Below are positions 3,136 through 50,345 of a stretch of DNA of 64,000 nt, one piece after another. Within the stretch, counting starts at the first letter, position 1. Every line of letters starts with the position of its first letter. The DNA is from Clarias gariepinus (Eukaryota). The notes beneath the pieces are model-generated. The model was given only the letters and a program-made list of their open reading frames with translations, had not been told where the DNA came from and ran no database searches. Made by a program: the position numbers and the translations under genes. The stretch lies in assembly GCF_024256425.1 (NCBI RefSeq), contig NC_071115.1, forward strand, positions 12,526,746-12,590,745, read 5' to 3'.

Positions 3136-3631
3136 ATCATCACTCCTAACTAAACCAAAAAACAAACACGGGAAAGTAAACCGGCGTGAGTCCAGCACAT
3201 GACGGTGTATCGGGTTGGCTAGGGGCTTGGACATCTGTCTAGTGCCCCAGTACGACGGAAAAAGCTGTGATTTGTTAGAAAAACAAAAACCAAATCCCTC
3301 CAAAACTAAATGCACATTTTATTACTATTCGATCAGGTCAAATATCTTTATGGCAGCAAGAGAGATGAAGGCTAAAGTAATATCTTTGATTCACCTGGGA
3401 AACATTACAGTGGTACTTCGACATATAACCCCCACACCTTGAGAACTTTTGCCTTAACAACTAAACTTTTGGAAAAAAAAGGAAAGAAAAACCTGAGCCA
3501 GTCACGTGTAATTCCAGTTGAGCATACTTCCTTTTTGTGGTTTTTTTTTTTGGATTTTGTGCAAGATTTAGGCAAGGCAGACTAGACAAGCCAAGCTTGT
3601 GTTTAAATAACAATAACTAAAGTGATAATAC

Positions 3632-3635
<4 letters not shown>

Positions 3636-3680
<45 letters not shown>
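3636..3680. repeat. (TA)22 microsatellite
   Basis: tatatatata... Confidence 0.95.
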
Positions 3681-3681
<1 letters not shown>

Positions 3682-4169
3682 CTACAGCATTGTGGACGTT
3701 CCACAACATTAAATGTACTTGTAATCCATTCCAGAGTGGACATTTCTTGTCCACTTCAACAGTCGTGTTTTTTTTTTTTTGCCTTTAAGGACGTTCTGTA
3801 GTTGTACTTCAGACTAACAAACCGTTTTAGAATGTTCTCGTACAATTCCGCATTGCGCAACATCCCTGTGTGTCGCTGCACTTAATCGAGGAAAACGCAC
3901 ATGAATCTTTTAACGGGGAACTTTTGCTTTAAAAAGTCGTGTTCTCTTGACGCTCGCGGCGACGTCATGTGACACAAACAAGCGCTTTAATTGGTTCGCC
4001 GAGTTCTGATTCGGTGAGTCCGCTGGGATCTCGGCCAGATCTGATGCTCTTCCCGCTCGCGCGCGCACATACACACGATGATGCAGTGTTTAATGCGACC
4101 GTTACTGAGTTGCTCTAACTCTCGGTACGGGGCACGTGAGCGCCGCGACGCTGTTTCTGTTGCGTTTAC

Positions 4170-4347
4170 CTGGCGCTGGAGTGAGAAGTTCTCGGAGCTG
4201 CTGTTTGAGCGTTTCGTTTTCGATGCGTGTCTGCGCGGTCTCTGTGCGGTACTCCGTTATTGTGGCTTCCACCGCCTCCAGGATCTCCCGAACAGCCACA
4301 GCCAGCCGCTCCATCAAATACGAGTTTAAAATCTCTAAATTTGACAT
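4170..4347 (-). CDS. First coding exon of an unidentified gene with a FiNZ-like helical N-terminal domain (as on fish C2H2-ZNF proteins)
   Basis: ATG at 4347. Reads MSNLEILNSYLMERLAVAVREILEAVEATITEYRTETAQTRIENETLKQQLRELLTPAP(G), then a consensus donor CCAG|GTAAAC (GT at 4169-4168). It is embedded in a CpG island (3840-4450) with an ETS ACTTCCGG motif upstream. No downstream exons were found in the window. Confidence 0.4.
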
Positions 4348-5462: not shown

Positions 5463-8400
5463 CCCTCGGTAAATTAATTTAATTGGTTCTGGAGGTGAGT
5501 TCTTAAGGCGAAAGTTCATACTGTGAATTGGATTTCCCCATAAGAAATAGTGTAAATGCAGATAATCTGTTCCAGCCACCCATAAATATGACCAATTTCT
5601 AACACTATAATCATATTTTTGCATATAAAACAATTAAACCATTTAGAAAAGATATGAAATGAAGTAAAATATGAAATGGACTTTAAACCTTACTTACCCT
5701 TAATTTCCTGATTCCTCTTGAAATCAACTGCTTTTTAATGAAAATTTCCATCTTAATTTCCATTAAAAAGGCCCCTTTACTTCTTGCTACCGTCCTTACT
5801 ACCTCTTTTGGGACCCATGGAGCTACGTCTTCATTAGTCTTGTACAAAATGCCCCCCAGCCCCCCCACACTCCCCCCCTAAAAGGAAAAAAAACAAAAAA
5901 ATGTAAAGTTTATAAATTTGCTTTGCTTGGCTTTTCACTGGTGCAAACGAGTTTTGAATGACTTGTGGATGTATGTGCAACTTAGCCAGCATTCCATTCG
6001 TTTGTTCGTTCATAATCTGATCCAAAATTGTTGCAAAATTTTAATTCATACAAGTCACTTAGTCTATGCTTACCGATGTCAGGAAAGAAAAAGACTACCT
6101 TTTTTACAGTCATGCACATCTGTTGCTCTCAAGAACATAAATAATTTTAACATGACCTGGTGAAATCTGGGAGAACAAAAAGTTGAAGTTGTGTTGATGT
6201 CCATTTGGAGACAAGCCCAAGGGAGGGCGGGAGAGAGCAACATAGAAAGAGAAAGTGAGAAAGAAAATGTGGGAGAGTTAACATTTTAATATTAAAACCA
6301 AAATAAGTAGAAAAGCATAGGGGAGTTAAAACATTTTATATTATAAAACAGAAGCAAAACATTCTTCCAGGATGGAAGCGATCCTGTGCATGAAGTAATG
6401 TTCATGCAGACATGACTAGTCAAAGTTGCATCAGAGTGGTGCACAGCCCTGACCTCAATCTCACTGATCACCTTAAGGATGAACTGGAATGCTGAGTTGT
6501 ACCAGGTCTCCTCACTTCACATCAATGCCTGATCTCACTTTCTCTAGTGGGCTCTTGCTGGTTCTAAGTGAGCCCAAACAGATCAGGATGACAATTACAA
6601 CATCACGTCTAATCAGTCTGGTTTTGTTTTAGCGGGCTTGGGGAGAATAAGACAGATAAACTTTCAGAGATAAATTGAGGGTTTGGACTGTGAGAGCAGT
6701 TGTCTTATAGCTATTACTGCTGTTCACTTTCACCCAGTCTTCAGTTCCTGTTACTGTCAAACTAGAGGCCTGTAGCTTGCCAAACACTAGGGAAGGGATG
6801 CAACCTCGCCCACTTATATCAAATTCATCGATTGGGTAATTTTATTAAAATGTATAATTAAATCCCCCTAGGTTAATTTATTTGTACTCTCAGACAGCTT
6901 GTTTATCTTCTCTATCCCTCTGTGACATTTTCTAATCAGTGACCTTTTCTGTCTGCTCTCACTCTCTCCATTGTGTAATGGTGAGCATGTCCACAGGAAA
7001 AACTAGTTGTTACAGAACTGCAATGAATGTGCAGGCAGTAACAGGCAGTTAAAGGGAGTTGTTAATCATTATACATGTAATAATTGTAGGGACTAACAGG
7101 CCACCTCAAAGGGAGCCGTGAATCTGTCACCTTCCAGCGAAACCATGCTGACAACGCTATGTTTCTCAATGGTACGAAGCAACTGGAAGTGTGATCCGGT
7201 CAAAGCAGGAAACCTAGATGGCTTTTACCAAGCTTGACCTCAAACAGTACAAATCAGCAAGTGGTTGTACAAGGAAGAGACAGTTTTACAACATTAGCAA
7301 ACTAGGAAAGAAGCAGTTTTACTGCTTTCTTGTGCAACTCCCTTGCACAAGACAGAAGCAGTTACACATCCCCACTCAAACTGCTCTGGGTTACGTAAAT
7401 TGGCAAGCACCTCACTTGAATAAGGAAGAAGACAGTTTCCTAACCCTCCTGGCAGTTGCTGACCACCAGAACGCATTTCCTGCTTCATCTCTTGGCTCAA
7501 GAACCAAGAACATACCTACTTTAGGGACACTTATAATGCCAATCAGTTAAAGTATGCCAGTAGGGCAAATATAAAATTATATGCATGTATTTATATAGGA
7601 TGTTTGGTATCATTGGGTTGTGTTCAACATGTCTATCCTAAACTTAGGAAGTGTAATCAACATGTATAACCCCTCTCTATAGATGACGGTATCAATAAGT
7701 ATACAAGATATGGGATGCTTGGTATTTAATGAAAGCTTGGTTTATTCAAAGAGCATTGATGTGTATTAAAGTTATATGAACCAGACTCGTGGTAATACAC
7801 TCTTAGTTACGAAAACTCCAACGAGATGTCCTCTCACGTGACAGACCAAATGCTAGATTAATGTATGCACGAAAAGTAGTAACCATGCGGGGCTTGGCTC
7901 TACGCACACAATCATCTCTGATTGAACACCTGTGGAACGGACCTGCTCCGTGGGGTCAAAAACCCCACGTCTGAAATCCTACATCGTCTGAAGTAAGGAA
8001 GCAAGCCCGTCCTGCTTCGGCCCCTGCGGCCGCTCCGCCGCCCTTGTGGGCATTCTATTTGGGACTTTGTATTTTCGCCCTTTGCATCAATGTATATAAA
8101 ATTATATGTATCAATAAGCAACCGGGGCATGCGCTCTTCAAGAACTCTCAACAAGACCTTGTGCCAGAACTCTAAAGTCCTGCAACGAAGAAAACCTTAG
8201 AAGAATTTCCAGAGCTCCACCATTGGTAACCAGGCAACCAACCCCTCACCAAAGGGCTTCCCCGAAAGACGTCATCTCAATAACAACGCACCAACAAATC
8301 AGCAATGGTGTGATTCCCTTCGCTGGAGGAGAACCAACGGATGAGAACGAAACGTATCTCGAGTAAACAAACAAAGCTTTATAAACCGTGAGATTAAACC

Positions 8401-10158
8401 CAAGGCTCTGCTCTTATGACTTCCTCAGGTCTAGTAAACAGTACTAGAAGAACTTCAGTAACTTTCCCCCTCTAAACTGTTTGTGTGTGTGTGTGTGTTT
8501 AGGTAGTGTAGTTTTTATTTATTGTAGATTGGTCAAATAAAATCTGAACTGTTGTCTTGGTCATGTATTTTGAAGTCTAAACATAAACCGAATTGGTAAG
8601 ATACACTACATCGTGTTAAACGCTGAATGGATAGATGATGAAGTGTATTCTATAAATTTTTATGTAGTTTAATAAAGTCAACCCGATTCCCTAAAGATTC
8701 GATTCAGAGCTGAAACCCTTCATAATATAGTTAATGATATATTCATATAGATAGCTAAAACTAATATTATTGACCAATTGTACAGAACAGTCTGTTAAAG
8801 TTACACAATGTAGGATGATTTAAAATATACAGGTATATCTATATAAATAAAAGAAATTTATTTAAAAAGAGGTTTATTTAAAAGGTTTTATCTGGTACAT
8901 TGGTCAGAAAAGTAATGTTATGAACAGTTATGCGCTGGATTTAAATAGGGAGTGTATTTGGCTGACAGTAGGTTGACAGTGTCAACAAGGCGTAACATAC
9001 TCTTACAAAATTTTAGTTCTTTTTATTAATAAGTTGGGCAGAGAGTTGTGCTGTACAGAAAGACAGGCAGATGTATGTGGGCTTAAATAACCTAAAATAA
9101 TATCACTGAATACATTTAAGCTGATCAACTTATTTTTACCTTTTCTCTTATTTCTTCTTCTATCACCACTTAATCTTCATTCCCGATTGTCCATAGGTCA
9201 GTGATCTTAAGTATATATTCATATCACTCTTTTTGCAGTACACTATTGAGTAAAAAAATAATTTTTATGTATGTGTGTACTTCATCCTTCATGCCTCTAT
9301 CATGCATTTTCACTTCCTTCGTTTCAAACTACTGCGTCACCCTCCAGCTATCACCATTTACAGCATCTGAGCCCAGTCCTGTCCCATTTGTCTCCTTCTT
9401 AGAGCCACACTGGCAGAAATGTTTAATTATTCATGTTGTTTTAAAATTCAAGTGAGTTTTTTTTTTTTTTTTTTTTTTACTAACTCCCGTCAGTAACGTC
9501 AGGGTACACTCCCCTTTGCACATCCTCGTTTTATTAGTCCCTCACTCTTTTCTGCTCCTTACCAACTGTTGCCCTGGCAACTGAAACATCCTGGAAGTGC
9601 ATGATGAAGTGGGAGTAGACAAAGAAGTAAGTGGGGGAGAGAGACAGAGCTACAGTACTTAATGAGTGGACAAGCTGAGAGATTAGATATATTTTTATTG
9701 TATACACTTTCTGTTATGTTTTTTGTTATTTTTTTTAATTGGGAAAAGAATCAAATGGAAAAAATGTGATCTTGATCATGTTAAATAGGCGCTTGTAGTA
9801 CACAGCATGACTTACTAGTAACAAGATAAATTTAGGCTATCATTATCTTAAAAGATGTGGGCAAATCATTGTATTCCCTGACCTATTGGACATCTGAAAT
9901 GTCAATCCCATATTTTGTTCGTTCATAAACCTACTTAGCTAGATTTAAACAATTAGCATCTAATGTTTAAGGTATACATACAAGCTTGAAAACCTCTCTG
10001 CAAAAGAATGACAGAAGTAAAAAACCCTTTAATATAATACAATTTATTTAGTATTTCCTATTATATTTAATTAAGTTTATAATAAACTCATCACAAAACC
10101 CTTGAACTTCAAGTGAAAACAGTGACGGAAGCGAAGCCCACTGCAATCGTTCCTGTGA

Positions 10159-12187: not shown

Positions 12188-12510
12188 GACAGCCGGGATG
12201 GTGGTTAAGTGGCTAGCACTGTTGCCTTGCACCTCCAGGGTCTGAGTTCAATTTGCGCCCAGGTTCGATCCCTGCCTCTGTGTGTTTGAAGTTTGCATGT
12301 TCTCCCTGTGCTTGATTGGTTTCCTCTCACAGTCCAAAAACATACAGATTAGGCTAATTGGTGTTCCCAAATTACCCGTTGTGTGTGTGTCCTGCGATGA
12401 ATTGGCAGCCTGTTCAGGGTGTACCCTGCCTTGTGCCTTAAGTTTCCTGGGATAGACTCCAGGGCCCCCCGCAACCCTAGATACAGGATGAAGTAGTCGA
12501 GATGATGAGG
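12188..12510 (+). mobile_element. Full-length tRNA-derived SINE (family with core CCTGCGATGGATTGGCACCCTGTCCAGGGTGTACC)
   Basis: tRNA-like head gggatggtggttaagtggctagcactgttgccttgcacctccagggtct..ggttcgatccctgcc. Conserved body ...tttgcatgttctccctgtgcttg..tcctgcgatgaattggcagcctgttcagggtgtaccctgcc...gataaag-like tail. Confidence 0.75.
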
Positions 12511-14813: not shown

Positions 14814-16444
14814 TATCTTCGGATTCAAAAGAGAAAAACAAAAAGAATATCTTTCAGAGACTTGGCACAGATTCTGTTTTGGCAAAGCTTCCCAAACAGA
14901 AGTGAATTGGATATCGCACCGGTAATTGACTTATAACGACTCGATCAAGGGAAAACATGCAGATGTGTTGATTTCTTTGCATTTAGGGATTCCTTCATGC
15001 ATGATCATACCGGTCTTGTTACCATGAAAATATGCTGTAAACTCAAAAAACAAGACAATACCGGTAACTTTGCACTATTTCCTCTTCGTATGGTTTCACT
15101 GGTGGTGTGGTAAGGAGAGAAGGGGGTGAGAAAAGTGTTCAGGGGGAATACCGCATAACCCCCTCCCTTGTACACACACACACACACACACATAACCACA
15201 CGCTTAAAATATAGGACCAATCAGAACGTGCGCCTGCATCCTTCACCGCAATTCCTTGCATCTCTCCATCTCTAGAGTATCTTTTCATCAGCAGTTTGCC
15301 CCCTCCCTCTTCCTCCTCCCTCTCTCACATCTCTCCATCTGTGTGAAACAAAGAGCTGCAACCCAGTTCAGACAACCCCATTCCTCCTCCCCTCTACACC
15401 ATCAATGCGCTTTAGTTACCGTCAGCCCTCATGTCTGGGAGAAGCTCATGTCTGGGATGTCTGTTCTGTGTGGCTTCGCCTGCATTTCTTGTTCGTCTCA
15501 CACTAATTCCCATCTGATAATGTGTCAAAAAAGACATTACAGACATACATACAGTACTTATTAAGAAGACCAAACCGGTGCAGGAGACGCACCGTAGGAG
15601 TGTGCATGCTAGTTTCCTTTATCGTCTTGCTCCCTTGGGATTCCGATCGTCTCTAGTAGAGAGCGCTGGATTGAGATGCTGCTTGCTGGTTTCATCAGAT
15701 TCTCATCCCGTTTCCATTTCGCCGTCTCTCCTTCATCATTTCAGTAATTGCCTTTCCCGCCATAAATCTACATTAGGCTATTCTTTTTTATCTACGAGTC
15801 TGATGTCATTACTCAGATAGTGTGCAGCCTTGGTAGCAGATGGACACGATGTCTCTACGACTCTCTAAACAAATTGCCTTTCTCAAAACAACATGCTTTT
15901 TTATTCTTTCTGATCTTTCTCGATTTCTCATCCTCTATCTCTCTTTCTCACTCTCTCCCTCCTTACATACACATACAAAGGACTTAAGACGGAAAAATGA
16001 GATCATACTGAATGCCTCATTGATGACATCATTTAAAAAAATGTCATTTTTCAAAATAAAAATAAAATAAACCATGCATTTTATGATTACGCTGGCTGCA
16101 GTCATTTTATACCTCCATTCGGAATGCTGGGGAAGTCTTGACTCCTGATGTTTGCTGATTTTCTTTCTGCGGATGAAAACAATGTGTTTGGTCTCAGGAA
16201 CTTGATCTAGAGTAGAAAAAAAACCCAATCTTGAGGTGCTTCAGTAATATGTGGGAATGCAGGTTAGAGAAGGCCGATGGTCATGTGGATCAGTCGGATG
16301 GTCAGAAATTCCTCCTTAGTTTGATTGTCATGGCAACCCTCAGGACTTTAATATCACTGCAAGAAAAGAAAACAGGCTCGTTAGAGGCAATACTAAAAGT
16401 TAAACAAAGGCTAAGTGGCATAGATGTGATTATTCTCATTCATC

Positions 16445-16785
16445 TTCTATACCGGTTTATCCTGTATTCAGGGTCGTGGGGACCTGGAGCCTATGCCAGG
16501 AGGCTTAGGGCACGAGGCAGGGTACACCCTGGACAGGGTGCCAATCCATCGCAGGGCACACACACATACACACACTACGGGCAATTTGGGATCGCCAATT
16601 AACCTAACCTGCATATCTTTGGACTGTGGGAGGAAACGGGAGCACCCGGAGGAAACCCACCAAGCACAGGGAGAACATACAAACTCCATGCACACAGAGA
16701 CGGGAATCAAGCCAGGCCGGGAATCGAGCCCGGACCCTGGAGGTGCAAGGCGACAGTGCTAACCACTACACCACCGTGTCACCTA
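16445..16785 (-). mobile_element. Full-length SINE, same family
   Basis: Reverse complement of the SINE consensus: ...ggacagggtgccaatccatcgcagggcacac... ...ggtgcaaggcgacagtgctaaccactacaccaccgtg. Confidence 0.75.
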
Positions 16786-17114: not shown

Positions 17115-17247
17115 GTCCCCAGTTGATGACAATGGTAGCAGCAATGATGAGAACTCCTCCCACAAGAGAGACAATCGAGAGGACCTTTGCGTTGCGTCCA
17201 AGACGCCGCGCTCCATCAACATTATCTTGTTGCAGACTGTACCGAGA
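17115..17247 (-). CDS. prrt2: PRRT2-like coding exon 3 (TM2); may extend unspliced to stop TAA at 17091-17089
   Basis: Reads [44 protein letters not shown]. Matches PRRT2 [44 protein letters not shown]. Acceptor ctttctctcag|TCT. The 3' end is ambiguous: a consensus donor C|GTGAGT lies at 17114-17113. Alternatively read-through gives REFHLSSN* followed by AATAAA (plus tttatt 17068-17073). Confidence 0.7.
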
Positions 17248-17494: not shown

Positions 17495-17802
17495 CATAAC
17501 AGAGAACGTCAAGCCGACGATGTTGATGGGCCAAAGTGGGCAGAAGCAGGCAAGTATGGCCAGGAAAAGGTAATCGTTAGGCTTGGTGTCATCTCCTGCA
17601 TTCTCGGTGAGAGCGCTGGGCTGGCGGCTGAGCGAGGGCCGAGGCGACCCAGCATGGCTCAGTGAACCTGAGCGGCTGCCGATGCGGGCATGGCCATGAG
17701 CATGCACATGGCCAGCCTTGGTATGATGATGATGACGAGGGGGAGAAGAACGGGAAGAGGTTGAAGGAGAAGCATCCACAGCATTGGGACAAACTCCATT
17801 AC
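17495..17802 (-). CDS. prrt2: PRRT2-like coding exon 2 (His-rich region and TM1)
   Basis: Reads (S)NGVCPNAVDASPSTSSRSSPPRHHHHTKAGHVHAHGHARIGSRSGSLSHAGSPRPSLSRQPSALTENAGDDTKPNDYLFLAILACFCPLWPINIVGLTFSVM. Acceptor ctcaccag|GT, donor GTTATG|GTACAG. The C-terminal part matches PRRT2 [27 protein letters not shown]. Confidence 0.75.
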
Positions 17803-17959: not shown

Positions 17960-18224
17960 TTGTTTCCATCTTTTCATCAATGACCGACAGGTTGTCTTTG
18001 GCCACGCCGTTCATATGGACTGAGCTTTCCAGAGCAGGAGTCTCCGTGTCTGTGGGTGGATCTTCATGCTCCGTCTTCACTGGCTGTGAGGTTATGGGAG
18101 CCTGGCCAGACACGTCATCTGGTTGTTGATTGGTCATTTGCTCAGTTTGTTGCTGCTCTTCTTCCTGCCCCTGCCCTGCACTTAGGGCAGTAGTTGGTGC
18201 GTCGCTGTCGGTGTTCAGAGCCAT
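17960..18224 (-). CDS. prrt2: PRRT2-like (dispanin family) coding exon 1; exon spans 17960-18310 with an 86-nt 5'UTR part
   Basis: ATG at 18224-18222 (atcaagATGG). Reads MALNTDSDAPTTALSAGQGQEEEQQQTEQMTNQQPDDVSGQAPITSQPVKTEHEDPPTDTETPALESSVHMNGVAKDNLSVIDEKMET(S). Upstream acceptor ctctttcccacag| at 18311-18312; donor ACAA|GTAAAG. Low-complexity acidic/proline-rich N-terminus as in PRRT2. Confidence 0.7.
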
Positions 18225-19176
18225 CTTGATGCAAGATGCAGAGTTTGCAAAAATGCCCAATTTCTTTTTTCAGACTAGTGCTGTACTGTGGCTGTCAAAT
18301 TACTGAATATCTGTGGGAAAGAGTTAAAGAATTGTAATGAATTTAATGTTAAAAATAATGAAACTCATTGGATGTACAGAACATGGCGGGAGATTGTTAC
18401 CAGGATGTGGCCTGTTTGTTTTGGTAAATTGGTGTATGATCTGACAACTTTCTTAATTTGAGACTTGAACAGGTGGGAAGGGCTTGTTAGTTGGACAGGT
18501 AGGACTTGTTGGGTGGGAGGTAAACACTTGTCAATGTCTTCCTTTCGATTGCAATTCACTGTGCAAGCAGCACGGGCATCTTATAATTATAGGTTGGTGG
18601 ACTAACGAACAGACAGATATTGAGCACAGATACTGAGCACATTGAGCTCACTAACTATTTATAGAGGGGAATACATTCTGTCTTGCGTGGGACCTTGGAA
18701 TCTTTTTCAGCATTCTGGACACCAACCAATGCACATGAACCATCTTAAAAAGTTCTTAAAATATTCGGCTGCAACTGTGTGTGTCAGGAAATCATATGGA
18801 AGAGGCTTCATGGCAGACCATCAGCTCCACCACCCTACAACACATCTAAGTGACTCTATTGCTCTGCCATGGATCTGGTCTGAAAGGAAACCATTGTTTT
18901 TAAAAAGCATTTTAAAATTTAAATAAGCCTCTGCTGTTTGTGAGGTGAATTGCAATTTCAGTTAAGACATTAGCAGGCTTTCCACCAGTACAGTGTGTCA
19001 GAACTGTGTACATGGAAACTGTGTTTCCATGAGGAAAAAGGGTGGAGCCAAATATTGTTTCAGAAAAGTGTAAACAAACGGCTAAAAATTAAGACAGTAA
19101 TATCGATTCCATATTAAAATCTGGAATTGGATACATTTCATATATAATATAAAAATAAATATAATAAATAACTTCA

Positions 19177-19210
<34 letters not shown>

Positions 19211-20200
19211 AATGGTGTGTATATATATCACAAACTGCACCTTTAAAATTGAATCAAGGCTGATAATGGCTCATACAGTTTCAACAAACCTGACAGTCCT
19301 ACAACTAAAATATGCAACAGAGAGACTATTTTTATCATACTGCATATCAGTAAAATGAGAGCTCACAATAAAATGGTCAGTACTGCTGTTTCAGCTTTTT
19401 CTAAGTGTTGCTTTAAAGTCAAACATGGTTCTGACTCATTCACTTTGCCCTTAACCTAACCTGACACTATAGTAAAGCTAGTGCACCTGCTACCCCCTTA
19501 TAATATATGCTGAGACAAGATATCTAAACACAAAAATGTGCACAGGAGAACAGATATCTGGCTGCATCCCCCTCACATCATTTCTGTGCTCTAAAAGCAA
19601 GTAAATGCCCATTTTAGCCAGATTTAATTCACACTTCGAGGTTATTTTCTTCGAGAGAGCTCTTTGAACCTCTTCTGCAGCGACCTTTTGTTTGCCTGAC
19701 TAGACATTTGCTTTGATAGTCATCCGAATATGCAAAGAGCCAAATTATGCATTATTTTTTAATTTGTGGCCTGTGATTAGGTTCATATTACAAATAGTTC
19801 ATAATTACGTTTTTGCTCGAAGTGAACATGTGTCTCAAGCACGTTTCCTTTGCTACACCCCAAACAGTGCACAGCATGTTCTGATTTTTTTTTCATTGTA
19901 TCTCTGAAATGACATAAACTTTAGACTGTGCTATAAATCCTGTATTGGCCAGGATTCTATTGCTGGGGATGAATGACTGGTTAAAACAGTAATTTTGTGT
20001 TTTGTTGGGTGAAGGAAAGAGATGAGGGGTGGATCAGATGACACACCTATCTCAAAAGCCCTCAATCCCAAATTAATTAAAAAAAAACAAAAAACCAAAA
20101 CAGTGCACATATTCAAAGGCAAATAATCAAATTGCTAGAAGCATACATGCTCTATAATGTATATATGTATATAAGATCAAGTAATTTCATATATTTTTAT

Positions 20201-20205
<5 letters not shown>

Positions 20206-20244
<39 letters not shown>

Positions 20245-20293
20245 AATAGAACATATATGGATGTATAAAAATATATACAATTACATGATTTTG

Positions 20294-20337
<44 letters not shown>
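20206..20337. repeat. (GA)17 and (AT)20 microsatellites
   Basis: agagagagag... at 20206-20240. atatatatat... at 20297-20337. Confidence 0.95.
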
Positions 20338-20339
<2 letters not shown>

Positions 20340-20937
20340 AGGTATGGGGAGACAGCTACACCTATACAGCACCCCAACACCACTGCTCTGCGTTGTCATG
20401 GAGAGCAAGAGTTTCTGGTATTTTATAGCCTACATTTGGGAGAAGATGTTCAAGCACAGTACTACATTTTCAATTCGTTCCGATGCATGACACACCCTTT
20501 CTTAAAAGCCTTCACATGTAAAGATCTAGCAATGCACACGAACAAAAAAACTCCACAAATAGACGAGTGCAGAAATAAAAACGGCGCGAGTTTGCATGCG
20601 TAACGTTACATAAGCTATCGTGAGACTGTGTTTTCTGGTGCCTGATGAAGTTTTGGGGGAATTTCGGAAACATTCCGCATTGATTTCAGCGAGGAGCGTA
20701 AAAGCGTGACACACCCGCGTTTTAAACAAGGCATCTCTCTGTGCGCTGGCCTCAGCGCGAGCTCGATGCGCAAAAGATGGAACGGAGACATGCAGACCCA
20801 CCTTTAGTGCGAGGTGTAGGAGAATGTTCCAGCGGACCTTATCATGGCGAAATATAACGTAAATGAAGGACTGGAAGGAGCCCGGGACTGGGATGCTGCA
20901 CTCAGGTCGAGTTTGAGCGAAACACACTCGATTTTAC

Positions 20938-21130
20938 GCTGTGTGTGTGTGTGTGTGTGTGTCGGAAGAAAGGAACGGGGGGTGCACACAGAAGGAGGCG
21001 CGATTTCACTCGACGCGCGCGCGCGCGGACTGAGGCGCCACCTGACCGCACCGAAGCGCTCGCGCACTCTCCCCTCGCGCCAGCCTGGGCGTCCCCGTGG
21101 CACTGCGCTGCTGCACATTTTATATAGCAG
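20938..21130 (-). promoter_or_regulatory. Minus-strand TATA promoter plus putative non-coding first exon in a CpG island; candidate exon 1 of the PRRT2-like gene
   Basis: The minus strand reads GCTATATAAAATGTGCAGCAGCGCAGTGCCACGGGG (TATA at plus 21118-21128) with CpG-dense sequence downstream. A possible donor GC|GTAAAATCG sits near 20937. It lies 2.6 kb upstream of the acceptor before the PRRT2-like ATG exon. The CpG island spans about 20560-21110. Confidence 0.3.
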
Positions 21131-21299
21131 TTTTCATATCTGGGCTGGTTTACAGTGACTAATGGTGACAGTTAAAATTATTATCATCCAGGTTGTCATC
21201 CTCACTGAGTCCCCTGATTTAATCTGTTTCGCCAACCGAAATTGCTGTTTACCATCTTAAATCACGTGCCATATGATGCTCACTCACTCACTGTCTATA

Positions 21300-21565
21300 T
21301 TGTGTTATCCTGTATACAGGGTCGTGTGGGGCCTGGAGCCTATCCCAGGAGTATGTGTGCACGAGGCAGGGTACATCCTGGATGGGTTGCCAATCCATTG
21401 CAGGGCACACACATACACACACTCACATGCACACTATGTCATTTAGTTCTAATCTGCATGTCTTTGGACTGTGGGAGGAAACCGTAGTACCCAGATGAAA
21501 CCCACCAAGAAAGTGGAGAACATGCAAACTCCACACAGTGCATATCACTGCGCCACTGTTCCGCC
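21300..21565 (-). mobile_element. SINE copy, same family
   Basis: cctgtatacagggtcgtgtggggcctggagcctatcccagg...ggatgggttgccaatccattgcagggcacac... Confidence 0.7.
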
Positions 21566-22544
21566 TCGCCATATGATGCTGATAACCTTTAATAAATGTT
21601 TCTTGTGCTCAGCCACACTGTCTGTGTGTGTGTGTGTGTATGTGTTGCAGTTCTGTTGTGACCCACTTCTTATATTATGCTGTTACCTTCTTTATAAAGC
21701 ATAAGCCTGAACCTATCCATATTATACATGTTCTTAGATTGCAATTTGTTGTTGGTACAAGAAACCATTTTGCTACTACAAAATGTTTCTAAAGAATTTT
21801 TTTTCTAAGAAAACATTCAAGTATTACAGAAAAACATCACTACAAGAAAATATTTAGTTTTTGTTTAATCAGTATTGTCCAAAATGTTGCTGATCAAAAA
21901 AAACTCTTTTGTTACTACTAAAAACATTTAATTACTAGAAAATAACATTTCAGTTTTGTGTAAAATTTTTTTTTTTTTTGGTGCTACAATAAATTTTATC
22001 ACTATATTTACATTTAGGTATTTGGCAGACGCCCTTAAACCAGAGCGAATTACATAGGTACACTTTGTAGGTATTTAGTATAGTCATTAACACCAACCCA
22101 ATTAACTGTGGCTATGCACAACACCTCAGCCCTTTTCTAACCTCTTAATAGAAAGAGTCCACCATAGGCCAGTCACACATTGCAACTTGCACATAGGAAA
22201 ATACGAGATAGTCTCTTACTCTTGATCTACAAAGTAAGCCTAACAAGATAAATACCTTATTTATGACCAATAATATTAAAAAAAATTTTTTTATACAAGA
22301 TACCTTGATCAGACTTGACCCTAAACGCATTAACAAGTAAATACCATTGATTATCTTCTTTTATAACACCTGTTATTGTTTGGGCAGTTCCAGTATTTCA
22401 TAACAGCAGTGGTCGGTTTCAGGAGGATTTTTGCTACGCTGCAAAAATTGTTCAGGAAAGGTTTGAGGATCATGACCAAAAGTACAAGATGTTGATGCAG
22501 ACTCCAAATTCCCTGGCTCTTTTATGTGATCGGGCATCTGTAAG

Positions 22545-22760
22545 ATGTGCCGAACAAACAAATCTGGTCCTCAAAGGCCCACCTTACATCTCCAGATACC
22601 TCATCACACCGTTAGAGTTCTTGTAGAGTCCATGCCTCAGTGTGTCAGACCATTTTTGGAAGCACAAGAGAAAGCTATGTACATGATATTAAATGAAGCA
22701 GTTATAATACCATGGTTGATCAGTGTATGCATTAGAAGAGATCCACTGCAAACTGGAGTG
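22545..22760 (+). mobile_element. Tc1-like transposase C-terminal fragment
   Basis: Reads ...IPHHTVRVLVESMPQCVRPFLEAQ..., resembling the Tc1-family C-terminus (IPQHTFRGLVESMPRRVRAVLAAKGGPTQY). Confidence 0.5.
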
Positions 22761-23536
22761 GACACATGTTTGATCCACTTATTTCAAACATCATAATAAA
22801 ACTGGTCCTGGACCAGTAAACAATTCATAAAGTGATTGTACAAATAAAAATTGTGGTTGTGCATTTTAAAGTACGTTGAAAAAAAAAACAGTGCACACTG
22901 AAAAAAGAACAGCATTGTCAAAGTCAAACGAAGTTAAAACAAGATTGTCAAAGTGTAATACATTATTAATGATTCAGGATCATCTGTGAAATGGCTTTGC
23001 ATTACATATCAACACTGGTTGTTTCTGCAACATCGTCAGCATTGCTTCATTGTTAACTTTGGCACAAAAATGAACATGCTTTTTTTGACTAACGTTGACT
23101 TTTTCCAGAGCATGGTCGTGAATCACAGTATAGTCACTCTGTCACCCAAAACAGCTGACCATCACAAACTGTAAACAAGCCCGGTTACCAAGTATGTAAC
23201 AGTTAAAGTCATGGGCAGGAGAAAATGTATCATACATTTCAAAGTTTATTTGATACTTATAAATGCACATGTAGTAGACAAAGATACATTCTTTTAGTTC
23301 ACTGCATGTTTCATAAGGCTTTGGTGGGTATGCTAAGAAAATTATTCCTTAAATGTTTAGTCAGGCACCTTGTTAAAGCAAATATATTTGCATAGAATAC
23401 ACTGCAATGTACTATTGCAAAGCATTTCTCTTACTACACCGTTTTCTCTGATAGTAGTAACGTTTTAGGAACTCAAACAACATAAAAGATGTCTGATAAA
23501 ACAAACAAACAAAAATTGCATTATAAGTGGGACGTA

Positions 23537-23542
23537 TTTATT
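23537..23542 (-). terminator. mvp: mvp polyadenylation signal AATAAA (minus strand), about 25 nt after the stop
   Basis: The plus strand reads tttatt at 23537-23542. A second candidate lies at 23246-23251 (plus tttatt) for a longer 3'UTR. Confidence 0.45.
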
Positions 23543-23565: not shown

Positions 23566-23688
23566 CTACTTTTCCTCAGGGGTCTTCATCGCCCCCAGCA
23601 GGCCATTAGCAGTAGTGAACAGATTGATAGGAGAGGAGCCATCTGTTATCAGAGTGGATTTAAGACCCAGAGCTTGTAGAAGTTTAAC
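23566..23688 (-). CDS. mvp: mvp terminal coding exon (includes stop TAG at 23568-23566)
   Basis: Reads [40 protein letters not shown]. Acceptor tccatccag|GTT. Matches human [32 protein letters not shown]. Total CDS is 2619 nt, 872 aa. Confidence 0.9.
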
Positions 23689-24136
23689 CTGGATGGAGAG
23701 GGAAAAAAACAGCAGCAATGAGTGAATAAACAGCACTAATAATCAGAAATATAATAAAACACGTTAGAAGTTTAGAAGAAGAAAACGACTGGATACATGG
23801 TGAGCGAATCTCGAAATTTTTTATACCTCCTTGTGTATTACATCATATTAAATTATTAAAATTATTGAATTAATTACTTTATCATGTGGTGGTACAGTAG
23901 AAAAAAATTTAATCAAACACCACAATAACCATGAGATGGTTAAACACTTATCCATGATTTTTTTCTTTAAAGATATGATCATATTCCTTCCCGCAGTCAA
24001 GCCTTTTTACCTACAGTATACTCACTATTTCAGCCAGATCTACAAAGTCAATCCACACGACCTGAGTGCCTGGTGCAATAAAGCTCATTTAACCTAGAAG
24101 AAATACAGGAGGTCTGGGTCTGTGAGTGCCGCGTAC

Positions 24137-24325
24137 CTGTAGCTCTGGTCCAGCTCTGGCCATCTCCGTCAAAGTGCCACTGCCAATAGCTTCTACCAGC
24201 TGCTTGAAACGTTGGCTTTCGATCTCAGACAGTTTCTGCTGCTTCTCCACTTCCTGGCGATCCAGTTCCTTTTTATAATTGAGCTCCTGCTCACGTGCTT
24301 TTGCCAGACGCACCAGTTCAGCTTC
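24137..24325 (-). CDS. mvp: mvp exon 16
   Basis: 63 codons: EAELVRLAKAREQELNYKKELDRQEVEKQQKLSEIESQRFKQLVEAIGSGTLTEMARAGPELQ. Acceptor tatcttag|GAA, donor CTACAG|GTACGC. Matches human [64 protein letters not shown]. Confidence 0.85.
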
Positions 24326-47414: not shown

Positions 47415-47650
47415 ATTATTTCCTCCGGGTACTCCAGTTTCCTCCCACAGTCCAAAGACATGTAGGTTAGGTTAATTGGTGTTCTCAAATTGCCTGTAGT
47501 GTGTGAATCGGTGTGTGAGTGAGTGTATGTGTGTGTGCCCTGCGATGGATTGGCGCCCTGTCCAGAGTGTGCCCTAAGTCTCCTGGGATACTGTAGGCTT
47601 CGGGCCCCCGCAACCCTGAAAACAGGATTAAGTGATAATGACGATGAGTA
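47415..47650 (+). mobile_element. SINE copy (5' truncated)
   Basis: tttcctccgggtactccagtttcctcccacagtccaaagacatgtaggttaggttaattgg...gtgtgccctgcgatggattggcgccctgtccagagtgtgccc. Confidence 0.7.
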
Positions 47651-48518
47651 AGTGAGAGCATACAAATGAACAAAAATGAATTTGTTTGATAAACAAATAA
47701 AAATAAAATTAAAAAAAAATTTATACAATTATATAAATGACACAGGATATACAGAAAGTGCAAAATGTTAGTGTAAACTGCGAGGTATAAAATATAACTA
47801 AGTATATAGTAGGATAAAAATATGGTGTTTGGGTACGATCCAGTCATATGATTGAAACATTAAGAATTGAAATAATGTGTGTGTCAGTAGCTGTGTTATT
47901 GTCCATGTTTCTAGGTCTTCATTTTATGTCTAAATGAATAGTGTAGACACACAAACAAGAAATGTGTAACACATGAGCAGTGTGCAAATGTGCAACATAG
48001 CGACAGTATGTGCTACATCATGACTCTGATGTGTAAGTATGAATGTAGTATGTGTGTGTATTTATGGTGTGAAGGATATGGTAATACCTCAAGCTGCTGT
48101 CTGGAACAACAATAATACATAAAATTAAATACTAATAAGACAAATATTCCATGCAGCAGTATTATATTTTGGACACGGGTCGTCTTGTGTCGCCTCCTTT
48201 GTAATGCAAACTACTGCATTATGAATTGCGTTATTAAAAGCCTATTTACCCGACTCAGTACACGACTGCCTATTTCCAGCCTTTAAAAAAATCACAGAAA
48301 ATTCCTTCATCAATCATATTGTTCTTATTGATGGCCACAGCACAAAACACACCACGGAAGATGCTGAACATCACAATACTGAAACATTACGATGGCGAGA
48401 ACAGCCAAGGAAGAAACGATGCAACTGTATTATTCTGTCATTCCAATCACGCTGCTGGGATGAGGGGTATTTTTCCTTCTGCAGTCCATGACAGGTTTAT
48501 TTAGACCTCTCTTATCGA

Positions 48519-49224: not shown

Positions 49225-50345
49225 ATTAACAAGCTAGGCTACATTCATATGTAAAGGCTATCTAAACACACATAATGTACATCTTATCGAATCACAAAAA
49301 AACTAAACCCAATCAAATCACACATAATATATACCTAATCTAATCACACCTAATCTAATAACAAATAAACTAATCACACATAATATATACTTAATCTAAT
49401 CACACATAATGTACACCTAATCTAACCACACATAATCTACACCCAATCTAATCACACCTAATCTAATAACATATAATCTACACATAATCTAATCACACAT
49501 AATCTACACCTAATCTAATCACACCTAATCTAATCACCCATTATGTACACCTACTGTAATCTAATAACATATAATCTACACATAATCTAATCACACAATA
49601 TATACTTAATCTAACCACACATAATCTACACCTAATCTAATAACATATAATCTAATCACACATAATATATACTTAATCTAATCACACATAATCTACACCT
49701 AATCTAATCACACCTAATCTAATCACCCATTATGTACACCTACTGTAATCTAATAACATATAATCTACACATAATCTAATTACACAATATATACTTAATC
49801 TAACCACACATAATCTACACCTAATCTAATAACATATAATCTAATCACACATAATATATACTTAATCTAATCACACATAATCTACACCTAATCTAATCAC
49901 ACCTAATCTAATCACCCATTATGTACACCTACTGTAATCTAATAACATATAATCTACACATAATCTAATCACACAATATATACTTAATCTAACCACACAT
50001 AATCTACACCTAATCTAATAACATATAATCTAATCACACATAATATATACTTAATCTAATTACACATAATCTACACCTAATCTAATCACACCTAATCTAA
50101 TCACCCATTATGTACACATAATCTACACATAATCTAATCACACATAATATATACTTAATCTAATCACACATAATGTACACCTAATTTAACTACACATAAT
50201 CTACATCTAATCTAATTACACCTAATCTAAACCTTATCTAATCACACATAATTTACAAATAACCTCATCACACATAATATGCACATAATCTAGTCATACA
50301 TAATATAACAACAGATAATCTATACCTAATTTCATCACATATAAT
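49225..50345. repeat. Tandem satellite with 189-bp higher-order period built from about 12-bp subunits (cacataatctac / acctaatctaat)
   Basis: The marker cacccattatgtacac recurs at 49535, 49724, 49913 and 50102, exactly 189 bp apart. The flanks are degenerate copies of the same short motif. Confidence 0.85.

What the first reader, a model, noticed from the sequence alone, without database searches (positions are those of the whole stretch)
20560..21130. CpG island with minus-strand TATA box and (GT)11 in the presumptive 5'UTR; likely non-coding exon 1 of the PRRT2-like gene
A 550-bp CpG-dense block lies 2.3-2.9 kb upstream of the PRRT2-like ATG exon, which itself begins at an acceptor ctctttcccacag. 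A strong TATATAAAA sits on the minus strand at plus 21118-21128. A GTAAAA donor candidate sits at about 20937, after a (GT)11/(AC)11 run. Human PRRT2 also has a non-coding first exon. Plus-strand ORFs here (MERRHADPPLVR..., MAKYNVNEGLEGARDWDAAL...) could instead mark a divergent plus-strand gene. That would make the island bidirectional.
Basis: inference. Interest (0 to 1): 0.5.

Follow-up and report, generated by a model that had tools for sequence, protein, structure and literature searches.

The report
prrt2 promoter island with leader exon

Summary
The window is Clarias gariepinus DNA. On the minus strand lie mvp, the CpG island, then prrt2. The island is real: 52 CpG in 571 bp, o/e 1.22 against 0.42 for the window.

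It is the prrt2 promoter plus non-coding exon 1. Four zebrafish transcript assemblies join an upstream non-coding exon to an acceptor 81 nt before the ATG. That exon's end (TTCGCACT...AAG|GT) is homologous to the most conserved block of the catfish island. In Clarias, exon 1 ends at 20802 (AAG|GTGGGT, the best donor in the island).

The TATA-like element is present in only 3 of 7 catfishes. By homology the TSS lies just 3' of the (AC)11 tract (~20925-20940), so the repeat may be promoter rather than 5'UTR; this is unresolved. The plus-strand ORFs are not conserved and have no homologues.

New here: a 13-codon uORF (20845-20804) ending 2 nt before the donor. It is conserved in position and start context in all 10 species examined. 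Overall this is an ordinary promoter with a modestly interesting conserved uORF.

The parts
20539..21106 (.). CpG island (CpG cluster). It spans the proximal promoter, exon 1 and the first ~260 nt of intron 1 of prrt2.
   Evidence: 52 CpG in 571 bp, o/e 1.22, GC 0.55, P ~5e-23. It is collinear with the densest CpG cluster upstream of prrt2 in all six other catfishes.
21000..21106 (-). GC-rich core of the island (19 CpG per 100 nt, GC 0.75), including a (CG)7 run at 21014-21027. Inferred proximal promoter, or the 5' part of exon 1 if the TATA-directed TSS is used.
   Evidence: The motifs GAGTGCGCGAGCG, CAGGTGGCGCC and GTCGAGTGAAATCGC are conserved among catfishes and partly in Electrophorus.
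21118..21126 (-). TATA-like element TATATAAAA. Function doubtful.
   Evidence: One search gives the position. C. magur has TATATACAA and Pangasianodon CATATAACA; Silurus, Tachysurus, Neoarius and Ictalurus have none; no TATAWAW within 450 nt of the donor in any other species.
20941..20962 (-). (AC)11 on the gene strand, (GT)11 on the + strand. This microsatellite is conserved in position and lies at or just upstream of the homology-inferred TSS.
   Evidence: An AC tract at the same place is followed by GCGCAGTGAGGG in catfishes, Electrophorus and Astyanax, and is degenerate in Danio.
20802..20940 (-). prrt2 exon 1 (non-coding), minimal extent. The 3' end at 20802 is firm. The 5' end (TSS) is inferred at ~20925-20940 by homology to zebrafish transcript 5' ends, and could reach ~21096 if the TATA-like element is used.
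   Evidence: four Danio transcript contigs use exon 1 at L009 6832/6837/6847/6880-7051. Searches give the homology.
20804..20845 (-). Conserved upstream ORF: ATG ATA AGG ... CAC TAA, peptide MIRSAGTFSYTSH*. The stop lies 2 nt before the exon-1 donor.
   Evidence: a uORF is present in 10 of 10 species, with the uATG 37-55 nt from the donor, a purine at -3, A at +4 and 11-14 codons. In Danio it lies inside sequenced transcripts. It is the only uATG in the Clarias leader under either TSS.
20796..20804 (-). Exon 1 donor splice site AAG|GTGGGT. The last exon base is 20802 and the GT is at 20801-20800.
   Evidence: 9.8 bits, the best of all GT sites in 21130-20500. It is identical in 9 species, and Danio has AAG|GTGAGT, which is used in transcripts.
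20932..20938 (-). Rejected.
   Evidence: 0.37 bits; other catfishes read CCGAGAAGC here, with no GT.
20690..20801 (-). Conserved block at the 5' end of intron 1 (GTGGGTCTGCATGTCTCC, TTTGCGCATCGAGC, GTGGGTGTGTCACGC). Presumed promoter-proximal regulatory sequence.
   Evidence: catfishes; Electrophorus.
18311..20801 (-). Intron 1 (2491 nt, inside the 5'UTR). It contains the microsatellites (GA)n ~20204-20250, (TA)n ~20297-20336 and (CT)n ~19177-19211.
   Evidence: The Danio equivalent is 2868 nt.
17960..18310 (-). Exon 2: 86 nt of 5'UTR after the acceptor TTTCCCACAG|, then the ATG at 18224 (context ATCAAGATGG) and the first coding segment.
   Evidence: The acceptor is conserved in 9 of 10 species, and Danio transcripts use the equivalent site (81 nt of 5'UTR).
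17495..17802 (-). Exon 3 (coding).
   Evidence: the spliced model equals P0001 exactly.
17115..17247 (-). Exon 4 (coding; CD225 domain).
   Evidence: PF04505.
16340..16356 (-). Coding part of exon 5 (...LILKS*).
21280..21580 (.). SINE-family insertion just upstream of the island, shared only with C. magur. It marks the upstream limit of the ancestral promoter in Clarias.

Best explanation

Transcription starts inside the island. By homology to zebrafish mRNA 5' ends, the most likely start is just 3' of the (AC)11 tract, around 20925-20940. A start near 21096, directed by the TATA-like element, is less likely. Exon 1 ends at 20802 at a strong, deeply conserved donor (AAG|GTGGGT). A 2491-nt intron lying in the 5'UTR is removed, and exon 1 is joined to the ATG exon at 18310.

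The last 44 nt of exon 1 carry a 13-codon uORF with a good initiation context. Scanning ribosomes would translate it first, so it probably lowers or tunes translation of the PRRT2 ORF 86+ nt downstream.

Basis for each step:
- Shown: the island, the gene identity, the splice-site conservation, and the exon 1-exon 2 junction and uORF in zebrafish transcripts.
- Inferred by homology: use of the same junction in Clarias, and the TSS position.
- Inferred from general knowledge of uORFs: the repressive function.
For: - Gene identity and model: the spliced CDS is 100% identical to C. gariepinus prrt2 (P0001 / XP_053370994.1).
- Synteny mvp -> prrt2 -> ZnF gene holds in 8 other species.
- The island is significant. 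It is collinear with the strongest CpG cluster ~2.9 kb upstream of the ATG in every catfish.
- Four independent zebrafish transcript contigs splice a non-coding exon (L009 ...-7051) to 9920, which is 81 nt before the ATG.
- The zebrafish exon end TTCGCACTGGATTAAG|GTGAGT matches the most conserved catfish block TTCGCACTAGAAAAG|GTGGGT.
- The same block is found by profile search in Electrophorus (E 9e-32) and Astyanax (E 2.5e-7).
- The donor at 20802 is the best-scoring site in the island.
- The acceptor TTTYCCACAG| is conserved.
- The uORF is conserved in 10 of 10 species.
- Human PRRT2 likewise has a non-coding exon 1 (PMC9712732, PMC7969989).
Against: - No Clarias RNA data were available, so the junction 20802|18310 and the TSS are inferred, not observed.
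- Assembled zebrafish contigs may be 5'-truncated, so the true TSS could lie further upstream.
- The landmark motif used to transfer the TSS (GCGCAGTGAGGG) is deleted in C. gariepinus, and a similar motif occurs 20 nt after the TATA-like element. The Danio-vs-C. gariepinus local alignment favours neither placement significantly (z 1.4).
- A 273-nt ATG-free stretch reaches exactly up to the TATA-like element. This would also fit a longer leader.
- uORF function is untested. Its peptide is poorly conserved, and part of its nucleotide conservation could reflect DNA-level elements, for example a GATA-like TGATAAGG in catfishes.
Confidence: 0.87

Rival explanations
1. Same promoter and exon 1, but the TSS is set by the TATA-like element at 21126-21118 and lies near 21096. 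Exon 1 would then be ~295 nt, and the GC-rich core and the (AC)11 tract would be part of the 5'UTR.
For: - TATATAAAA is a strong match and is rare in the window (10 copies on both strands in 64 kb).
- No ATG occurs between it and the uORF (273 nt), and most other catfishes show similar ATG-free stretches.
- A GCGCAGTG motif like the one next to the zebrafish 5' ends lies 20 nt downstream of it.
Against: - The TATA is not conserved. It is TATA-like in only 3 of 7 catfishes and absent in eel, cavefish and zebrafish.
- Where both motifs survive, zebrafish 5' ends align to the motif after the AC tract (z 2.3-4.3 in Ictalurus, Tachysurus, Pangasianodon and Neoarius). The order is collinear in Astyanax (z 6.4).
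- CpG-island promoters are usually TATA-less (general knowledge).
Confidence: 0.3
2. One reading: exon 1 ends at the GTAAAA donor (~20937/8), directly after the (AC)11 tract.
For: A GT is present there, and it sits downstream of the repeat.
Against: - PWM score is 0.37 bits against 9.8 for the 20802 site.
- The GT is absent in all non-Clarias catfishes.
- The zebrafish donor is homologous to the 20802 site.
Confidence: 0.03
3. The island is a bidirectional promoter that also drives a plus-strand gene, encoded by the MERRH... or MAKYN... ORFs or by a non-coding divergent transcript.
For: - Both ORFs exist.
- CpG-island promoters often fire divergent unstable transcripts (general knowledge).
Against: - ORF B runs through the GT repeat. 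In C. magur it is broken by +21, +4, +16 and -2 nt indels and by stops, and it is unreadable in other catfishes.
- It has no Pfam match and no homologue among 5.8 billion proteins.
- ORF A is 26 codons, its ATG is Clarias-only, and it overlaps the prrt2 donor and intron.
- No gene is called on that strand between mvp and prrt2 in any of 9 annotated genomes.
- Only ~2.4 kb separates the island from the mvp 3' end, and that stretch is mostly SINE and transposon remnants.
Confidence: 0.04
4. The island is an orphan CpG island or enhancer unrelated to prrt2 transcription initiation, and the prrt2 TSS lies directly upstream of the ATG exon.
For: None specific. The region 18311-18363 is conserved upstream of exon 2, but that is expected for a polypyrimidine tract and branch point.
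Against: - Zebrafish transcripts start in the homologous island and splice to the homologous acceptor.
- The acceptor consensus is conserved.
- There is no CpG enrichment near 18310.
Confidence: 0.03

Closest known systems
Human/mouse PRRT2 gene structure (four exons, exon 1 non-coding, exons 2-4 coding; PMC9712732, PMC7969989)
   Same: Both have a non-coding leader exon separated from the ATG exon by an intron, the same CD225-family protein, and a neighbourhood that includes MVP (16p11.2 synteny).
   Different: - The fish gene has five exons; its N-terminal coding region is split by an extra intron.
- The gene order relative to mvp differs: here mvp lies upstream on the same strand (the comparison with the human order is from memory).
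- Whether mammals carry the uORF could not be checked here.
Zebrafish prrt2 mRNA (Logan transcript contigs L010-L013; gene ID 100329612)
   Same: The exon 1 donor block, the acceptor position (81 vs 86 nt of 5'UTR in exon 2), intron 1 size (2868 vs 2491 nt), a uORF ending just before the junction, and a CpG-rich region around the 5' end.
   Different: - Most of exon 1 is not alignable.
- Zebrafish has a second uORF and only a degenerate AC tract.
- The zebrafish donor is GTGAGT rather than GTGGGT.
Vertebrate CpG-island (non-methylated island) promoters
   Same: The island meets the length, GC and o/e criteria, spans the inferred TSS, first exon and start of intron 1, and its TATA is not conserved.
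   Different: Methylation state is unknown. The gene is neuron-restricted (literature), whereas many CGI promoters are housekeeping.
Conserved vertebrate uORFs acting as translational repressors (e.g. PMC4890304)
   Same: A short AUG-initiated uORF in good context, upstream of and not overlapping the main ORF, with start and stop positions conserved across species.
   Different: The peptide sequence is weakly conserved, so it is not a conserved-peptide uORF. Function is untested. It was not found in the uORF supplement searched or in the PRRT2 literature.

Membership tests
CpG island (Gardiner-Garden & Frommer criteria) | Length >=200 bp, G+C >=50%, CpG observed/expected >=0.6 | tested here: met
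   571 bp, GC 0.55, o/e 1.22. The CpG cluster runs 20539-21106.
CpG-island promoter | Overlaps the transcription start site of a gene | tested here: inconclusive
   There are no Clarias transcripts. Zebrafish transcript 5' ends (L009 6832-6847) lie in the homologous CpG-rich region. Transfer by homology puts the TSS inside the island.
CpG-island promoter | Unmethylated in vivo | not testable with these tools
   Needs bisulfite or non-methylated-DNA profiling.
Non-coding first exon / 5'UTR intron of prrt2 | Transcripts join an upstream non-coding exon to the ATG exon | tested here: met
   Met in zebrafish, where four contigs from four sequencing runs share the same junction 7051|9920. For Clarias it is inferred by homology only.
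Non-coding first exon / 5'UTR intron of prrt2 | Canonical, conserved GT donor and AG acceptor at homologous positions | tested here: met
   The donor is AAG|GTGGGT in 9 species and AAG|GTGAGT in Danio, and is the top PWM score. The acceptor is TTTYCCACAG| in 8 species, TTTTCCAG| in the eel and CCAACAG| in Danio.
Non-coding first exon / 5'UTR intron of prrt2 | Exon 1 contributes no residues to the main protein | tested here: met
   The only uATG opens a 13-codon ORF that stops before the junction. The protein from exons 2-5 equals P0001 exactly.
TATA-box core promoter | TATAWAWR-type motif | tested here: met
   TATATAAAA on the minus strand at 21126-21118.
TATA-box core promoter | Motif lies ~25-35 nt upstream of the TSS | tested here: inconclusive
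   The homology-inferred TSS (~20925-20940) is ~185 nt downstream of the motif. The Clarias TSS has not been measured.
TATA-box core promoter | Motif conserved in orthologous promoters | tested here: not met
   TATA-like in only C. gariepinus, C. magur and Pangasianodon. No TATAWAW within 450 nt of the donor in the other species.
Conserved uORF | AUG upstream of the main AUG with an in-frame stop, within the mature 5' leader | tested here: met
   20845-20804. It lies within zebrafish transcripts and within the Clarias leader under either TSS.
Conserved uORF | Start and stop conserved across species | tested here: met
   10 of 10 species from Siluriformes, Gymnotiformes, Characiformes and Cypriniformes. 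Purine at -3, A at +4, 11-14 codons.
Conserved uORF | Ribosome occupancy and an effect on main-ORF translation | not testable with these tools
   Needs ribosome profiling or reporter assays. prrt2 was not found in the uORF supplement searched.
Bidirectional promoter with a divergent protein-coding gene | A conserved coding gene on the opposite strand starting within ~1 kb | tested here: not met
   The ORFs are not conserved. No Pfam match and no homologues. No gene is called there in 9 genomes.

The most novel reading that the evidence does not exclude
The short uORF at the 3' end of the prrt2 leader exon, with its stop 1-13 nt from the exon 1-exon 2 junction, may be an ancient dosage-control element for PRRT2. 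It would act through translational repression and possibly NMD coupling. It has been retained for well over 100 million years in otophysan fishes and could be present in other vertebrates. Human PRRT2 disease is caused by haploinsufficiency, so a repressive uORF would be a handle for raising PRRT2 output. The positionally conserved (AC)n tract and the (CG)7 run next to the TSS might act as a structural (Z-DNA-prone) promoter element.
Probability: 0.3. Interest if true: 0.45.

Novelty: new member of a known kind. Interest (0 to 1): 0.22.

Why it matters
For genome annotation, this fixes the true 5' structure of catfish prrt2: exon 1 ends at 20802, intron 1 is 2491 nt, and exon 2 starts at 18310. 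It also shows that a plausible-looking TATA box and donor were lineage-specific coincidences.

Biologically, PRRT2 is a dosage-sensitive neuronal gene. In humans, loss of one copy causes paroxysmal dyskinesia and infantile epilepsy. A uORF conserved across four fish orders suggests that translation of PRRT2 is regulated through its leader, and this can be tested directly in zebrafish. Otherwise the feature is an ordinary CpG-island promoter.

Tried and rejected
- Exact look-up of the Clarias protein in the contig index: not on record, so no Clarias transcript contigs could be fetched. No catfish cluster had Logan (transcript) members.
- Plain blastn of the island against Astyanax, Electrophorus and Danio found nothing in the island. 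A profile (nhmmer) search was needed, and even that missed Danio, where homology rests on transcripts plus short motifs.
- First blastn run without a low-complexity filter was swamped by microsatellite hits.
- Rfam scan of the whole window: 0 hits.
- Canonical RE1/NRSE (REST) site search with up to 3 mismatches: 0 hits. No evidence for REST control from sequence.
- Pfam scan of all six long open frames across the island: nothing significant. My first attempt failed on a wrong frame.
- Homologue search with plus-strand ORF B: none.
- ORF A was first translated one base out of frame and redone.
- TSS transfer via the GCGCAGTGAGGG landmark. I found that catfishes carry two similar motifs and tested both placements. 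The downstream one is favoured in four catfishes and Astyanax, but the result is not decisive for C. gariepinus itself, which has lost the motif.
- Literature search for a PRRT2 uORF or a promoter description: nothing specific.
- The bacterial promoter/terminator scanner was not used, as it is not applicable to a vertebrate.

Full report
**Source and neighbourhood.** The window is vertebrate DNA (GC 0.38, CpG o/e 0.42). I assembled the minus-strand CD225-family gene next to the finding from four coding segments: 18224-17960, 17802-17495, 17247-17115 and 16356-16340. The first three segments were enough to find the match in the homologue search, and the full model translates exactly to the 240-aa prrt2 protein of Clarias gariepinus (P0001, XP_053370994.1). 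Upstream on the same strand lies mvp. It shows vault repeats, a cap-helix exon at 24092-24325, a stop at 23566-23568 and poly(A) signals at 23542 and 23250. The order mvp -> prrt2 (-> a C2H2 zinc-finger gene where the locus reaches that far) recurs in Ictalurus, Tachysurus, C. magur, Pangasianodon, Silurus, Astyanax, Electrophorus and Danio. The finding therefore sits in the 5.3 kb between the mvp stop and the prrt2 ATG.

**Observation check.**
- The interval 20560-21130 holds 52 CpG (GC 0.55, o/e 1.22). The window average predicts 8.9 (Poisson P ~5e-23). Only one other island in 64 kb is comparable.
- The CpG cluster spans 20539-21106, with a very dense core at 21000-21099 that includes a (CG)7 run.
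- TTTTATATA is at + 21118-21126. (GT)11 is at 20941-20962. GTAAAA reads on the minus strand at 20937->20932. The acceptor ctctttcccacag| precedes 18310. Both plus-strand ORFs read as quoted.

**Comparative anatomy of the island.** I fetched orthologous loci with 10-kb flanks. In all six other catfishes the densest CpG cluster upstream of prrt2 is collinear with this island, ~2.9 kb before the ATG. A seven-species alignment shows that the best-conserved part is neither the TATA-like element nor the repeat. It is a ~200-nt stretch (window ~20880-20690) centred on ...CATGATAAGG..CACTGGAATATTCTCC...TTCGCACTAGAAAAG|GTGGGTCTGCATGTCTCC...TTTGCGCATCGAGC. A profile of the island finds the same region in the electric eel (E 9e-32) and the cavefish (E 2.5e-7), with the same AAAAG|GTGGGT.

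**Transcript evidence from a relative.** Some prrt2 homologues in the protein database come from ~1.0-1.9-kb Logan contigs that carry an uninterrupted CDS, so they are assembled mRNAs. Four zebrafish contigs from four different sequencing runs (L010-L013) map onto the zebrafish genomic locus L009 as follows:
- exon 1, 6832/6837/6847/6880 to 7051;
- a 2868-nt intron;
- exon 2 from 9920, with 81 nt of 5'UTR before the ATG at 10001;
- three further coding exons.

The zebrafish junction context is TTCGCACTGGATTAAG|GTGAGT ... CCAACAG|TTCTC. The Clarias counterpart is CTCGCACTAAAG|GTGGGT ... CCCACAG|ATATTC. The conserved catfish block is therefore the 3' end of a non-coding exon 1 plus its donor.

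In C. gariepinus exon 1 ends at 20802, intron 1 is 20801-18311 (2491 nt), and exon 2 begins at 18310 with 86 nt of 5'UTR. The acceptor TTTYCCACAG| is conserved in all catfishes and the cavefish, and the eel has TTTTCCAG|. I scored every GT on the gene strand between 21130 and 20500 with an approximate vertebrate donor matrix (frequencies recalled from the literature). The 20802 site ranks first at 9.8 bits. Human PRRT2 also has four exons with only exons 2-4 coding (PMC9712732, PMC7969989), so a non-coding leader exon is an ancestral trait of the gene.

**TATA, repeat and TSS.**
- The TATA-like element is TATATACAA in C. magur and CATATAACA in Pangasianodon. It is absent in the other four catfishes, eel, cavefish and zebrafish.
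- TATA-like strings are common in this AT-rich window: TATAWAAR occurs about once per 2.6 kb per strand, and the exact 9-mer 10 times.
- Three zebrafish 5' ends fall within 15 nt of each other (6832-6847), directly 3' of a GCGCAGTGAGGG motif that follows a degenerate AC tract.
- In catfishes, eel and cavefish an (AC)n tract is followed by the same motif.
- The catfish island carries a second, similar motif ~20 nt after the TATA-like element, so I tested both placements with local alignments against dinucleotide shuffles. In Ictalurus, Tachysurus, Pangasianodon and Neoarius the zebrafish segment aligns to the AC-tract motif (z 2.3-4.3). In Astyanax a downstream zebrafish exon-1 segment (CGCAGTGGATCACATGCAG) aligns collinearly (z 6.4).
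- C. gariepinus has lost the motif, so its own alignment is uninformative (z 1.4).

The best estimate is a TSS just 3' of (AC)11, around 20925-20940, giving an exon 1 of ~125-140 nt. This assumes the zebrafish contigs are near full length. A TATA-directed start near 21096 (exon 1 ~295 nt, repeat inside the 5'UTR) remains possible. A 273-nt ATG-free run reaching up to the TATA-like element fits that alternative. I give it about 0.3.

**A conserved uORF.** Read on the gene strand, the invariant CATGA at the start of the conserved block opens a short ORF that stops just before the donor. In C. gariepinus it is 20845-20804, ATG ATA AGG TCC GCT GGA ACA TTC TCC TAC ACC TCG CAC TAA (MIRSAGTFSYTSH*), and it ends 2 nt before the junction. 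All ten species have it:
- uATG 37-55 nt from the donor;
- purine at -3 and A at +4;
- 11-14 codons;
- stop 1-13 nt before the donor.

A 3-nt deletion in Clarias converts TAG AAA AG to TAA AG and still keeps a stop in frame. In zebrafish the uORF (MRRIMLFFALD*) lies inside all four transcripts. It is the only uATG in the Clarias leader under either TSS, and the main ATG has a strong context (ATCAAGATGG).

The peptide is weakly conserved (catfish MIRGTGIFSHASH, eel MIMIIGIFFLVSL, cavefish MSTLTGILPALVSV). What is kept is the uORF itself rather than its product. The ATG survives even where the overlapping GATA-like TGATAAGG does not (cavefish, zebrafish). From established knowledge of vertebrate uORFs (e.g. 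PMC4890304), the likely role is to damp or tune PRRT2 translation. This is inference. I found no report of a PRRT2 uORF.

**Plus-strand alternative.**
- ORF B (MAKYN..., 104 codons) reads through the GT repeat. In the congener C. magur it is disrupted by +21, +4, +16 and -2 nt indels and by stops, and it is unreadable in other catfishes.
- It has no Pfam match and no homologue among 5.8 billion proteins.
- ORF A (MERRH..., 26 codons) has its ATG only in Clarias. It is simply the antisense of the conserved uORF/donor/intron block.
- No gene is called on that strand between mvp and prrt2 in the nine annotated genomes.
- Rfam finds nothing in the window.

A divergent coding gene is rejected. Unstable divergent non-coding transcription, common at CpG-island promoters, cannot be tested here.

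**Other context.** About 110 nt at the start of intron 1 (20801-20690) is conserved as far as the eel. This is probably promoter-proximal regulatory DNA, and its factors are unknown. No canonical REST site is present in the window. A SINE at 21280-21580 is shared only with C. magur, so the ancestral promoter upstream of the island is at most ~150 nt in Clarias. A CCAAT box conserved in C. magur, Pangasianodon and Neoarius is mutated in C. gariepinus.

**Verdict.** The island is the prrt2 promoter with a non-coding exon 1 that splices to 18310. The donor is at 20802, not 20937. The TATA box is probably incidental. The position of the repeat relative to the TSS is unresolved. There is no divergent coding gene. 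The feature is ordinary. The added value is a precise, evolution-backed 5' gene model and a deeply conserved uORF in a dosage-sensitive neuronal gene, which is a new member of a known kind.

Noticed in passing
window 3600-4150 and 4102-4347 (-): A second strong CpG island (up to 48 CpG per 500 bp, o/e ~1.4) lies next to a minus-strand ORF, MSNLEILNSYLMERLAVAVREILEAVE.... From memory this resembles the N-terminus of fish FiNZ-type zinc-finger genes. Orthologous loci carry a C2H2-ZnF gene downstream of prrt2.
   Followed up: partly
window 49260-50304: Degenerate C/A-rich satellite with nested periods of 26, 67 and 378 nt (88% matches at 378). It causes the strong negative GC skew (-0.5) of this region.
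   Followed up: partly
window 21280-21580, 16435-16688, 12318-12489, 47419-47655 and others: Copies of one SINE-like repeat family. The copy just upstream of the prrt2 island is shared with C. magur (L003 6589-6854) but not with other catfishes, so it is a Clarias-lineage insertion.
   Followed up: partly
window ~21080-21089 (-): A CCAAT box (ACGCCCAATCTGG) conserved in C. magur, Pangasianodon and Neoarius (Silurus has CACAATCTG) reads CCCAGGCTGG in C. gariepinus. The candidate NF-Y site has been lost in this species.
   Followed up: no
window 21014-21027: A (CG)7 run is conserved in several catfishes. In the alignment, Ictalurus shows a (CA)n run at that position, which would fit CpG decay. 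Together with (AC)11 it makes two alternating purine-pyrimidine (Z-DNA-prone) tracts near the TSS.
   Followed up: no
window 20941-20962; L008 ~8060-8085; L007 ~6480-6500: The (AC)n microsatellite keeps its position next to the GCGCAGTGAGGG motif across Siluriformes, Gymnotiformes and Characiformes. That is unusually long positional persistence for a dinucleotide repeat.
   Followed up: partly
window 20690-20801 (-): The first ~110 nt of intron 1 is conserved as far as the electric eel (TTTGCGCATCGAGC, GTGGGTGTGTCACGC). The function of this promoter-proximal block is unexplained.
   Followed up: partly
L009 6872-6937 (Danio exon 1): Zebrafish exon 1 carries a second, longer uORF (uATG 180 nt before the donor) that has no counterpart in Clarias.
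   Followed up: no
L003 1-3283 (C. magur annotation): The C. magur gene model upstream of prrt2 fuses pentaxin, dynein light chain and vault domains into one 1443-aa product. This is almost certainly an annotation merge of neighbouring genes. Pangasianodon shows a similar dynein-mvp fusion.
   Followed up: no
one search hit list: Many fish prrt2 orthologues are named 'trafficking regulator of GLUT4 1' or 'tumor suppressor candidate 5 homolog' in NCBI, although they are syntenic with mvp and closest to PRRT2. The automated naming is inconsistent.
   Followed up: no
window 22351-22793 (+): Open frames such as ...AKIVQERFEDHDQKYKMLMQTPNSLAL... look like a decayed Tc1/mariner transposase (recognised from memory) lying between the mvp 3' end and the prrt2 promoter.
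   Followed up: no
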